A DNA stretch of 16,692 nt, taken from the sequence record NZ_CP146747.1. The stretch is one strand, 5' to 3'. The position numbers and the translations under genes were made by a program. This stretch comes from a plasmid. This document shows positions 16,387 through 16,692 of the stretch, in pieces. Within the stretch, counting starts at the first letter, position 1; each line of letters opens with the position of its first letter. A model generated the notes under the pieces. The model had not been told where the DNA came from. It ran no database searches and saw only the letters and a program-made list of their open reading frames with translations.

Positions 16387-16522
16387 TTCTTTTTGTATGA
16401 CAAAAAGAAAGATCTTTTGCCCATTTTATTTTTATAAAATGGGTAGGTGGCGTTTGCCTAAAGCAAATCGACACAATCCAAAGGGGATAAAAGGGGAAAG
16501 TTAAACTTCCCCCTTTTCAAGC

Positions 16523-16585
16523 CACATTGTAATACAAGAACGAAGTGCTTTGTATTACAATGTGATAGCTTGCAGTATTTATGGT
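16523..16585 (+). other. Candidate lactococcal-type oriT: 15-bp perfect inverted repeat (cacattgtaatacaa 16523-16537 / ttgtattacaatgtg 16550-16564, 12-bp spacer) followed by ATAGCTTGCAGTATTTATGG
   Basis: IR seen directly. The GCTTGCA core resembles the pC221-type nick region (GCTTG/CCAAA). From memory, IR + CTTGCAGTATTT is conserved at oriT of lactococcal mobilisable plasmids, located upstream of mob genes. Confidence 0.5.
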
Positions 16586-16670
16586 TTTATATTTTCTATT
16601 TTGTTGTGAGGATTGTAACCGAATAGGGCGCAATCCTTATTACAAAATCAATGACAAAGGGCGATTGAGG

Positions 16671-16692
16671 AATGAGCGCTGAGGCATTTTAT
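16671..16692 (+). CDS. Possible 5' end of a gene (MSAEAFY...) running off the window, preceded by GAGGA. It would be the first mob gene downstream of oriT if real.
   Basis: Only 7 codons are visible, so this is speculative. Confidence 0.15.

What the first reader, a model, noticed from the sequence alone, without database searches (positions are those of the whole stretch)
16483..16692. Second, different oriT-like site (15-bp IR + GCTTGCAGTATTTATGG) at the other end of the window
A perfect 15-bp inverted repeat with a 12-bp spacer is followed by a GCTTGCA core reminiscent of pC221-family nick sites. It is preceded by an imperfect G/C-rich hairpin (aaaggggaaagtt / aacttccccctttt). A possible gene start (MSAEAF...) begins at 16671, where mob genes would be expected. 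Two unrelated oriT candidates on one small plasmid would allow mobilisation by two different relaxase families.
Basis: partly seen in the sequence, partly recalled or inferred. Interest (0 to 1): 0.55.

Follow-up and report, generated by a model that had tools for sequence, protein, structure and literature searches.

The report
Known lactococcal orphan transfer origin (oriT)
This is the well-known pNZ4000/pCD4-type origin of transfer of lactococcal plasmids, here without its own mobilisation genes, so it is real and probably works with helper plasmids, but it is ordinary and already described.

Summary
A perfect 15-bp inverted repeat (16523-16537 / 16550-16564, 12-nt loop) is followed after ATA by GCTTGCAGTATTTATGG (16568-16584) and preceded by a G/C hairpin (16489-16517).

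It is the classical lactococcal oriT, not a new one. It is 95-99% identical in about 330 plasmid records and 96% identical to the copy upstream of mobC-mobA-mobB in pNZ4000. It shares the whole layout of the staphylococcal pC221 oriT: hairpin, CAAGCC, IR, loop GAACGAAGTG, 3 nt, GCTTGC.

Window 16503-16624 corresponds exactly to the 122 bp that Ortiz Charneco et al. 2024 found necessary for pNP40-driven mobilisation of pDRC3E.

No mob genes follow. MSAEAF reads MSAEAFYL-stop across the junction. The real relic is an 8-codon mobC stub (window 18-47). The plasmid encodes no relaxase or MobC, so this is an orphan oriT that needs helper functions in trans.

Verdict: already known, low interest. The one open point is which relaxase cuts it.

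The parts
16503..16624 (+). Segment corresponding exactly to the 122 bp of pDRC3E (4687-4808) needed for pNP40-driven mobilisation
   Evidence: PMC11097999 Table S5: construct F2 is mobilised and F3 is not. Primer F2-Rv matches window 16605-16624 exactly. Primer F3-Rv matches 16484-16502 with 1 mismatch. Of 14 aligned copies, 13 are at least 91% identical to the window over 264-268 bp; E. italicus pSRB2 is 88.8%.
16489..16517 (.). Upstream G/C-rich hairpin AAAAGGGGAAAGTT / AACTTCCCCCTTTT. The same position holds a hairpin (ATGGGAT-ata-ATCCCAT) in the pC221 oriT.
   Evidence: I3, 14 nt, 93%. (-8.4 kcal/mol, z = -2.75). flags it as terminator-like on the minus strand. One search gives the pC221 counterpart.
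16518..16522 (+). CAAGC, complementary to GCTTG of the nick core. CAAGCC is also present at this position in pC221.
   Evidence: In the fold, 16518-16522 pairs with 16568-16572 across the ATA bulge. One search gives the pC221 sequence.
16523..16537 (+). Left arm of the perfect 15-bp inverted repeat, CACATTGTAATACAA (presumed relaxase/MobC recognition hairpin)
   Evidence: One search shows a compensatory change: A>T at the 4th arm position (CACATTG>AACTTTG) is matched by T>A in the right arm (CAATGTG>CAAAGTG) in E. italicus pSRB2 and an S. parauberis plasmid. These two copies also carry C>A at the first arm position, which is not compensated.
16538..16549 (+). 12-nt loop GAACGAAGTGCT. GAACGAAGTG is shared with the loop of the pC221 oriT. 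The loop is inverted in one relative.
   Evidence: pC221 aGAACGAAGTGgcta. (the SCB469 plasmid carries the reverse complement of the loop).
16550..16564 (+). Right arm of the inverted repeat, TTGTATTACAATGTG
16568..16584 (+). Nick-region core GCTTGCAGTATTTATGG, 3 nt after the IR. The published putative nick hexamer CTTGCA is 16569-16574. The exact bond was not determined here.
   Evidence: single exact match in the window. In one search, ATAGCTTGCAGTATTT is unchanged in all 14 aligned copies apart from a 3-nt GCA insertion in Listeria pLIS37. PMC3387028 gives the putative nick site CTTGCA. pC221 has aac-GCTTGCCAAA.
16598..16648 (.). Downstream imperfect inverted repeat ATTTTGTTGTGAGGATTG / CAATCCTTATTACAAAAT, between the nick core and the mobC ribosome-binding site. 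It is only partly inside the required 122 bp.
   Evidence: I1, 18 nt, 83%. Conserved.
18..47 (+). Truncated mobC stub ATGGATCAGAAAAATGTATCACAAATTTAA (MDQKNVSQI-stop). Its first 8 codons equal the start of pNZ4000-type mobC.
   Evidence: homology to mob-carrying plasmids ends at about window 53; tblastn finds only MobC residues 1-17, at window 18-68. The mobC start is confirmed by the cloning primer pUC11C_mobC-Fw.
128..175 (+). It lies about 250 bp downstream of this oriT on the circle.
   Evidence: the arms covary among plasmids and GTGTAAGTGCGCATTG is invariant. The pUC11B oriT nick region is TAAGTGCGCCCTTAT. This site is not needed for pNP40 mobilisation, because construct F1 is still mobilised.

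Best explanation
Window 16489-16624 is an orphan copy of the pNZ4000/pCI528/pCD4-type lactococcal origin of transfer. It is a member of the pC221-like MobC-MobA-MobB mobilisation family.

Proposed mechanism:
- It acts in cis only. In a donor cell that also holds a conjugative plasmid and a matching MobC plus relaxase (Pfam PF03432), the accessory protein and relaxase assemble on the hairpin/inverted-repeat region.
- The relaxase cuts the + strand in the GCTTGCA core, 3 nt beyond the repeat.
- The cut strand is led 5' to 3' into the recipient. The DNA downstream of the cut enters first (mobC stub, second oriT-like site, replication origin, repB) and the inverted repeat enters last, where it serves for termination and re-ligation.

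This plasmid has lost the mob operon and keeps only 8 codons of mobC. It therefore cannot start its own transfer and depends wholly on helper functions.

What is shown:
- The sequence, its identity to the known oriT, and its position upstream of mob operons elsewhere.
- The absence of mob genes in this window.
- The published requirement of the equivalent 122 bp for pNP40-driven mobilisation of pDRC3E, raised about 20,000-fold by pNP40/pDRC3A-type MobC.

What is inferred:
- The nicked strand, the exact bond, the direction of entry, and which relaxase does the cutting.
For: Prevalence and homology:
- 329 plasmid records match, 267 of them Lactococcus. 299 of 329 are at least 95% identical and the other 30 are 90-95%. 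MOB-suite types 314 as mobilizable.
- pNZ4000 carries three copies. One (28393-29037, 96% over 645 bp) lies directly upstream of mobC-mobA-mobB-fic.
- the same arrangement occurs in Lactococcus, Listeria and S. parauberis plasmids.
- the adjacent genes are MobC/NikA-like and a PF03432 relaxase.
- the pC221 oriT has the same layout and shared motifs. Its MobA and MobC are each 35% identical (E = 1e-34 and 9e-18).

Constraint on the structure:
- the nick core is unchanged in 14 copies apart from one 3-nt insertion, and a compensatory pair change occurs in the IR.
- the IR and its fold lie far beyond chance.

Experimental and literature support:
- the 122 bp required for mobilisation of pDRC3E by pNP40 (PMC11097999) maps exactly to window 16503-16624.
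- pDRC3A-type MobC raises pDRC3E co-mobilisation about 20,000-fold.
- PMC3387028, PMC3138775, PMC6098607 and PMC4293149 describe this same conserved region upstream of repB or mobC as the oriT of pCD4, pSRQ800, pSRQ900, pIL1, pIL7 and pNZ4000, with nick hexamer CTTGCA.
Against: - No relaxase or MobC is encoded in the window, so function here depends on an unknown co-resident helper.
- The nick has never been mapped on this sequence.
- The published deletion shows that the 122 bp are necessary, not that they are sufficient.
- The same paper found no similarity between these 122 bp and the oriT it mapped for pNP40. My BLAST also found none in the 7-kb rep-mobC-relaxase (traAa/traAb) segment of pNP40 that I fetched.
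- The MobC type natively adjacent to this oriT (pUC11C/pNZ4000 type) did not stimulate pDRC3E mobilisation. The pNP40/pDRC3A type did.
- pUC11D lacking this site was still mobilised by pUC11B (construct F1).
- The primary papers on pNZ4000, pCI528 and pCD4 could not be read.
Confidence: 0.85

Rival explanations
1. It is a dead relic. The site is only the leftover 5' flank of a deleted mobC-mobA-mobB operon. It is carried along passively with the theta replicon and has no present function in this plasmid.
For: - The mob operon is gone and only 8 codons of mobC remain.
- The plasmid has no relaxase.
- High identity among plasmids could reflect recent spread of the replicon module rather than selection.
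Against: - An equally orphan copy on pDRC3E is required for mobilisation.
- The orphan junction is kept intact in 147 records.
- The nick core is unchanged, apart from one 3-nt insertion, even in copies that are 88-92% identical overall, and the IR shows a compensatory change.
Confidence: 0.08
2. It is mainly a regulatory or transcriptional element. The hairpins would act as terminators or insulators, or as the operator of the former mobC promoter, rather than as a transfer origin.
For: - The G/C hairpin at 16489-16517 is flanked by T runs and is flagged as terminator-like on the minus strand.
- oriTs of this kind usually overlap the mob promoter (general knowledge of MobCAB systems).
Against: - The 15-bp IR is not followed by a T run and is not called as a terminator.
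- No promoter-like site is found in 16100-16692.
- There is no gene left to regulate.
- No Rfam family matches the region.
- This reading does not explain the mobilisation phenotype.
Confidence: 0.04
3. It is a recombination site for the small tyrosine integrase that precedes this module in many plasmids (spoIIM-int-oriT synteny), serving multimer resolution or cassette exchange.
For: - The integrase gene lies immediately upstream in pDRC3E, FDAARGOS_887 plasmid 4, pSRB2 and an E. faecium plasmid.
- A 59-bp copy of the integrase 3' end sits at window 16100-16158.
Against: - An S. parauberis plasmid has an IS6 transposase, not an integrase, in the 1.5 kb upstream of the same site. In the other mob-carrying plasmids no integrase is listed upstream, but the PLSDB gene tables are incomplete and the homology there still includes the integrase 3' remnant.
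- The layout matches the pC221 oriT motif for motif, and no integrase is annotated on pC221.
- The deletion phenotype is loss of mobilisation.
Confidence: 0.03

Closest known systems
oriT of Lactococcus plasmid pNZ4000 (oriT upstream of mobC-mobA-mobB; van Kranenburg and de Vos 1998, cited in PMC6098607). The same element is annotated on pCD4, pCI528, pSRQ800/900, pIL1/pIL7 and pGL3/pGL4.
   Same: - 95-98% identical over about 265 bp to the three pNZ4000 copies, and 96% over 645 bp to the copy next to the mob operon.
- Same hairpin, 15-bp IR, ATA and GCTTGCAGTATTT.
- Same position about 0.9 kb upstream of repB in the orphan form.
   Different: - There is no mobC-mobA-mobB next to it, only an 8-codon mobC stub followed by unrelated sequence. 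This orphan form is itself common, with 147 records.
- The window has one loop-side difference, GTT where most copies have GTG, in the upstream hairpin.
The 122-bp 'minimal mobilisation sequence' of pDRC3E (Ortiz Charneco et al. 2024, PMC11097999)
   Same: - Same sequence and same orphan context.
- All three mapping primers are found in the window, one of them spanning the window's end-to-start junction.
   Different: - That paper did not equate the 122 bp with the classical oriT and left the responsible element 'to be established'.
- The window plasmid is a different mosaic: a pilus/sortase cluster and an IS6 element lie next to the module.
oriT of Staphylococcus aureus pC221 (MobC-MobA-MobB system)
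   Same: - Same order of parts: hairpin, CAAGCC, inverted repeat, loop containing GAACGAAGTG, 3-nt spacer, GCTTGC.
- The cognate MobA and MobC are each 35% identical.
- MOB-suite types both relaxases as MOBP.
   Different: - The IR arms are unrelated and shorter in pC221 (GGTATATTC / GAATATAC against a 15-bp arm).
- The sequence after GCTTGC differs (CAAACC against AGTATT).
- Cross-recognition is therefore not expected.
RSF1010/pIP501/pMRC01/pUC11B-type oriT (nick region TAAGTGCGCCCT)
   Same: Same general logic: an inverted repeat a few bases 5' of a conserved nick core, usable in trans.
   Different: That motif is absent from 16483-16692. It belongs to the neighbouring site at window 128-175.

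Membership tests
pNZ4000/pCD4-type lactococcal oriT | Nucleotide homology to the oriT copy upstream of mobC-mobA in pNZ4000 | tested here: met
   96.1% over 645 bp to pNZ4000 28393-29037. 95-98% over about 265 bp to all three copies.
pNZ4000/pCD4-type lactococcal oriT | Inverted repeat followed closely by the CTTGCA nick hexamer | tested here: met
   15-bp perfect IR, then ATA, then GCTTGCA. The hexamer is named in PMC3387028.
pNZ4000/pCD4-type lactococcal oriT | Cognate mobC-mobA-mobB operon immediately downstream | tested here: not met
   Only mobC codons 1-8 remain (window 18-47). There is no relaxase or MobC in the window. The operon is present in 126 related records. The orphan form is recognised in the literature (PMC3387028, PMC3138775).
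pNZ4000/pCD4-type lactococcal oriT | Required in cis for conjugative mobilisation | not testable with these tools
   Reported for the equivalent 122 bp of pDRC3E, which is 98-99% identical (PMC11097999 Table S5). Not tested on this plasmid.
pNZ4000/pCD4-type lactococcal oriT | Strand- and site-specific nick by the relaxase | not testable with these tools
   No nick mapping is available for this sequence. The position is inferred from the literature hexamer and from pC221.
pC221-like MobCAB oriT (Staphylococcus) | Layout of hairpin, CAAGCC, IR, loop, IR, N3, GCTTGC upstream of mobC | tested here: met
   Direct reading of pC221 3080-3160 against window 16486-16580.
pC221-like MobCAB oriT (Staphylococcus) | Same IR arm sequence (specificity determinant) | tested here: not met
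   The arms differ completely. This is the same kind of site but a different specificity group.
pC221-like MobCAB oriT (Staphylococcus) | Homologous relaxase and MobC associated with the site | tested here: met
   For the lactococcal mob-carrying copies, MobA is 35% identical (E = 1e-34) and MobC 35% (E = 9e-18). Both proteins are absent from the window itself.
RSF1010/pIP501/pUC11B-type oriT (MOBQ-like nick TAAGTGCGCCCT) | TAAGTGCGC nick core next to an IR | tested here: not met
   Absent from 16483-16692. Present only at window 158-175.
Intrinsic terminator | G+C-rich stem followed by a T run | tested here: not met
   The 15-bp IR is A+T-rich and is followed by ATAGCTTGCAG. It is not called in the scan. 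Only the upstream hairpin is terminator-like, and on the minus strand.

The most novel reading that the evidence does not exclude
The orphan oriT may be cut not by its cognate pNZ4000-type MobA but by the distantly related pNP40-type relaxase, which is 24% identical, guided by pNP40/pDRC3A-type MobC.

The basis is a shared layout of inverted repeat, 3 nt, then GCTYGC. Upstream of pNP40-type mobC genes I found an IR with covarying arms followed by TAA-GCTCGCTA. Orphan copies lose homology right after that motif.

Together with the neighbouring TAAGTGCGC site, the module would then be a two-key hitch-hiking cassette tied to the theta replicon in about 150 plasmids. It would be usable by both prevalent lactococcal conjugation systems. 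This would also answer the question left open in PMC11097999.
Probability: 0.3. Interest if true: 0.4.

Novelty: already known. Interest (0 to 1): 0.15.

Why it matters
The practical meaning is modest. This pilus-encoding plasmid is very likely mobilisable whenever it shares a cell with a pNP40-type conjugative plasmid and a matching MobC, even though it has no mob genes. Annotation that calls such plasmids non-mobilisable because they lack a relaxase would be wrong.

That point matters for predicting the spread of adhesion, phage-resistance and other traits among dairy and fish-pathogenic lactococci, enterococci and Listeria, since the site occurs in all of these.

The site itself has been described since the 1990s and adds nothing new. 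The only unresolved issue it touches is which relaxase and MobC pair recognises it.

Tried and rejected
- Reading the primary papers on pNZ4000 (PMID 9765557 / PMC107574), pCD4 (PMC92788), pCI528 (PMC206682) and the pC221 relaxosome (PMC1513511): none is held. The statements that the pNZ4000 and pCI528 oriTs are functional therefore rest on secondary citations. The pC221 comparison was made directly on its sequence instead.
- A full-text search for 'CTTGCA' plus 'oriT' with match='anywhere' was useless because it matched 'algorithm'.
- A PDB sequence search with the cognate MobA gave no hit.
- Similarity between the 122 bp and the 7-kb rep-mobC-relaxase segment of pNP40 that was fetched: none by BLAST. 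Only a shared layout was seen.
- Similarity between the 122 bp and the 189-bp minimal sequence of pDRC3F: none significant. By eye pDRC3F has a 7-bp IR followed 5 nt later by GCTTGG at the very edge of that segment. This is too weak to claim.
- A gene starting at MSAEAF: rejected, because it reads 8 codons and then a stop across the junction.
- The PGAP 'cytochrome B' and long-MobC ORFs over the site: rejected as real genes. In the window the long-MobC reading frame is only a 33-codon ORF (16581-16682), and no + strand ORF of 60 or more codons is listed over the 'cytochrome B' position. The experimentally used mobC start is the downstream ATGGATCAG.
- RNA element: no Rfam match in the region.
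- Using homology breakpoints to locate the nick: there are too few partial copies, and they give only suggestive cases.

Full report
**What is in the sequence.** The described features are all present.
- The arms CACATTGTAATACAA (16523-16537) and TTGTATTACAATGTG (16550-16564) are perfectly complementary around a 12-nt spacer, GAACGAAGTGCT.
- ATA follows the right arm, then GCTTGCAGTATTTATGG at 16568-16584.
- The hairpin AAAAGGGGAAAGTT / AACTTCCCCCTTTT lies just upstream, at 16489-16517.
- A perfect 15-bp repeat never arose in 500 Markov simulations of the 313-nt region. It arose once in 40 simulations of the whole window.
- As single-stranded DNA the 108-nt region folds at -24.7 kcal/mol (z = -7.1). 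The stem is extended by CAAGC (16518-16522) pairing with GCTTG of the core.

**The window is a circle.**
- Window 16284-16692 followed by 1-950 is colinear at 98% with pUC06E. Window 16101-16692 followed by 1-438 is colinear with two further plasmids.
- A published primer, pDRC3E_F2-Fw, matches window 16679-16692 plus 1-7 exactly.
- The two 'ends' are therefore adjacent.
- That module sits about 0.9 kb upstream of repB (951-2108). The ctRNA of the replicon is at 867-951 on the minus strand.
- The supposed gene start reads MSAEAFYL-stop across the junction.

**What the plasmid is.**
- It is a lactococcal theta replicon: RepB with the L. lactis RepB C-terminal domain, followed by a DUF6609 protein.
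- It also carries an HsdS fragment, SpoIIM, a small tyrosine integrase and an AraC/GyrI-like regulator.
- A sortase-dependent pilus cluster (7617-15348) and an IS6 transposase (15415-16098, minus strand) make up most of the rest.
- No PLSDB record matches it as a whole. The best, pUC06E, covers 76%.
- It has no relaxase and no MobC. Pfam scans and tblastn with pNZ4000-type, pNP40-type and pC221 Mob proteins found only MobC residues 1-17, at window 18-68.

**Identity of the site.**
- Window 16380-16692 matches 329 plasmid records. 299 are at least 95% identical and the other 30 are 90-95%. 267 are from Lactococcus; others are from Enterococcus, Streptococcus, Listeria and lactobacilli. MOB-suite types 314 as mobilizable.
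- pNZ4000 has three copies. The one at 28393-29037 (96% over 645 bp) lies directly upstream of mobC, a 410-aa PF03432 relaxase, mobB and fic.
- The same arrangement is found in other Lactococcus plasmids, in Listeria innocua pLIS37 and in an S. parauberis plasmid.
- Homology between the window and these mob-carrying plasmids runs to about window 53. Window 18-47 reads ATGGATCAGAAAAATGTATCACAAATTTAA. Its first eight codons, MDQKNVSQ, are the start of mobC, and a stop follows after one altered codon. That start is the one used to clone functional mobC (primer pUC11C_mobC-Fw).
- The orphan junction as in the window occurs in 147 records. The intact oriT-mobC junction occurs in 126.

**Literature.**
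- Several papers describe exactly this region as the transfer origin of pCD4, pSRQ800, pSRQ900, pIL1/pIL7 and pGL3/pGL4. [quoted passage not shown] They relate it to the functional oriTs of pCI528 and pNZ4000 (PMC6098607; PMC4293149).
- The strongest evidence is experimental. Ortiz Charneco et al. 2024 (PMC11097999) made deletions of pDRC3E. The derivative ending at primer F2-Rv was mobilised by pNP40 and the one ending at F3-Rv was not, which defines a required 122 bp (Table S5).
- F2-Rv equals window 16605-16624. F3-Rv equals 16484-16502 with one mismatch. The required segment is therefore window 16503-16624, which holds the inverted repeat and the GCTTGCA core.
- Their construct F1 lacks the TAAGTGCGC site and was still mobilised. 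That site is therefore dispensable for pNP40.
- Induced pDRC3A-type MobC raised co-mobilisation about 20,000-fold. pUC11C-type MobC and mobA supplied in trans did nothing.

**Relation to pC221.** Upstream of its mobC it reads ATGGGAT-ata-ATCCCAT, CAAGCC, GGTATATTC, aGAACGAAGTGgcta, GAATATAC, aac, GCTTGCCAAA.
- The order of parts matches the window, as do the motifs CAAGCC, GAACGAAGTG and GCTTGC and the 3-nt spacing. The repeat arms differ.
- The lactococcal MobA and MobC are each 35% identical to those of pC221.

**Signs of constraint.** These come from 14 aligned copies.
- ATAGCTTGCAGTATTT is unchanged in all 14 apart from a 3-nt GCA insertion in Listeria pLIS37.
- Two diverged copies (E. italicus, S. 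parauberis) change CACATTG to AACTTTG. The change at the 4th arm position is matched by CAATGTG to CAAAGTG in the other arm. The change at the first position is not compensated.
- One plasmid carries the loop in inverted orientation, as expected if the arms pair or recombine.

**Mechanism.**
- The best reading is an orphan, cis-acting oriT. MobC and a PF03432 relaxase supplied by other replicons would assemble on the hairpins and nick the + strand in GCTTGCA. They would then deliver the strand through a helper's mating channel, with the repeat entering last for termination.
- The strand, the bond and the direction are inferred by analogy. They are not shown.

**Who cuts it is unresolved.**
- The natively adjacent MobC type did not help pDRC3E. 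The pNP40 type did.
- The authors found no similarity to the oriT they mapped downstream of the pNP40 relaxase gene.
- Upstream of pNP40-type mobC genes I found an inverted repeat whose arms covary among plasmids: GTAAGTGT/ACACTTAC, GTACTTGT/ACAAGTAC, CTATGTGT/ACACATAG and GTACTTGG/CCAAGTAC. It is followed by TAA and then G(C/T)TC(G/A)CTA.
- Orphan copies in 2-4-kb plasmids lose homology directly after that motif.
- This is the same layout as IR-ATA-GCTTGC and may explain cross-recognition. It is a lead, not a result.

**The two-oriT idea.**
- The second site has conserved flanks, covarying arms and an invariant GTGTAAGTGCGCATTG in 539 records, including 2-kb rolling-circle plasmids.
- It resembles the nick region of the pUC11B oriT, TAAGTGCGCCCTTAT.
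- The published failure of pUC11B to mobilise pDRC3E(e) is uninformative. The marker replaced the loop and right arm of that repeat in every construct.
- Dual mobilisability is therefore plausible but untested.

**Verdict.** It is wrong on the downstream gene and on the geometry. The element is already known and common, and interest is low.

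Noticed in passing
window 88-183 (core 128-175): The second oriT-like site has conserved flanks (ACTTCTGATACA, TTTTTAG) and an inverted repeat whose arms covary between plasmids: window CATCACTC/GAGTGATG, pDRC3E ACATCAA/TTGATGT, p158G CCACCC/GGAGTGG, L. plantarum ACGTCAT/ATGACGT. GTGTAAGTGCGCATTG is invariant. It occurs in 539 plasmid records, including 2-kb rolling-circle plasmids. In one L. plantarum plasmid it lies directly after an integrase gene.
   Followed up: partly
L008 (pNP40) 5541-5575 minus strand; L021-L024; L009 about 4040-4080: Upstream of pNP40-type mobC there is an inverted repeat with four covarying arm variants, followed by TAA and G(C/T)TC(G/A)CTA. 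Orphan copies in small plasmids lose homology right after this motif. This looks like the real nick region of pNP40-type relaxosomes. It differs from the oriT mapped downstream of traAb in PMC11097999.
   Followed up: partly
window 16100-16158 and 5158-5216: A 59-bp, 88% identical copy of the integrase gene's 3' end abuts the IS6 transposase gene (15415-16098). This suggests that the regulator, pilus cluster and IS6 block (about 5217-16099) was inserted between the integrase gene and the oriT module by an IS6-mediated event.
   Followed up: partly
L015 (L. plantarum pZW5B) 1490-1510; L016 (E. faecalis) about 1560-1570: pZW5B carries the module with a precise deletion running from just after CAAGC to just after GCTTGC, removing the whole repeat. 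An E. faecalis plasmid loses homology right after GATAG, just before CTTGCA. Both breakpoints lie at the presumed nick core, but two cases are too few to conclude anything.
   Followed up: partly
L012 (L. lactis SCB469 plasmid 4) about 1535-1546: The 12-nt loop of the inverted repeat is present as its reverse complement (ATCACTTCGTTC), while the arms are unchanged. This is a flip between the arms.
   Followed up: no
window 867-951, minus strand: Rfam ctRNA_pND324 match (86.9 bits). This is the antisense RNA that controls repB in lactococcal theta replicons.
   Followed up: no
L006 (pNCDO184D, a near-twin of pUC11D) about 1795-1966: If pUC11D is colinear with L006, the 173-bp 'minimal mobilisation sequence' of pUC11D in PMC11097999 falls on the mobC-end/mobA-start overlap. 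Its loss would then disrupt the mob genes rather than remove an oriT. This was estimated from primer pUC11D_F1-Fw and Table S5 coordinates only.
   Followed up: partly
window 16283-16609 equivalents in other records (e.g. L003 4904-5230): NCBI annotation places a 'cytochrome B' ORF, or an N-terminally extended MobC, over the oriT in many plasmids. In the window the extended-MobC frame is only a 33-codon ORF (16581-16682) and no long + strand ORF is listed over the 'cytochrome B' position. These are probably annotation artefacts.
   Followed up: partly
window 3943-3987 and 6369-6410: Two perfect 21-bp inverted repeats lie after the hsdS fragment and after the AraC/GyrI-like gene. They are probably terminators.
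   Followed up: no
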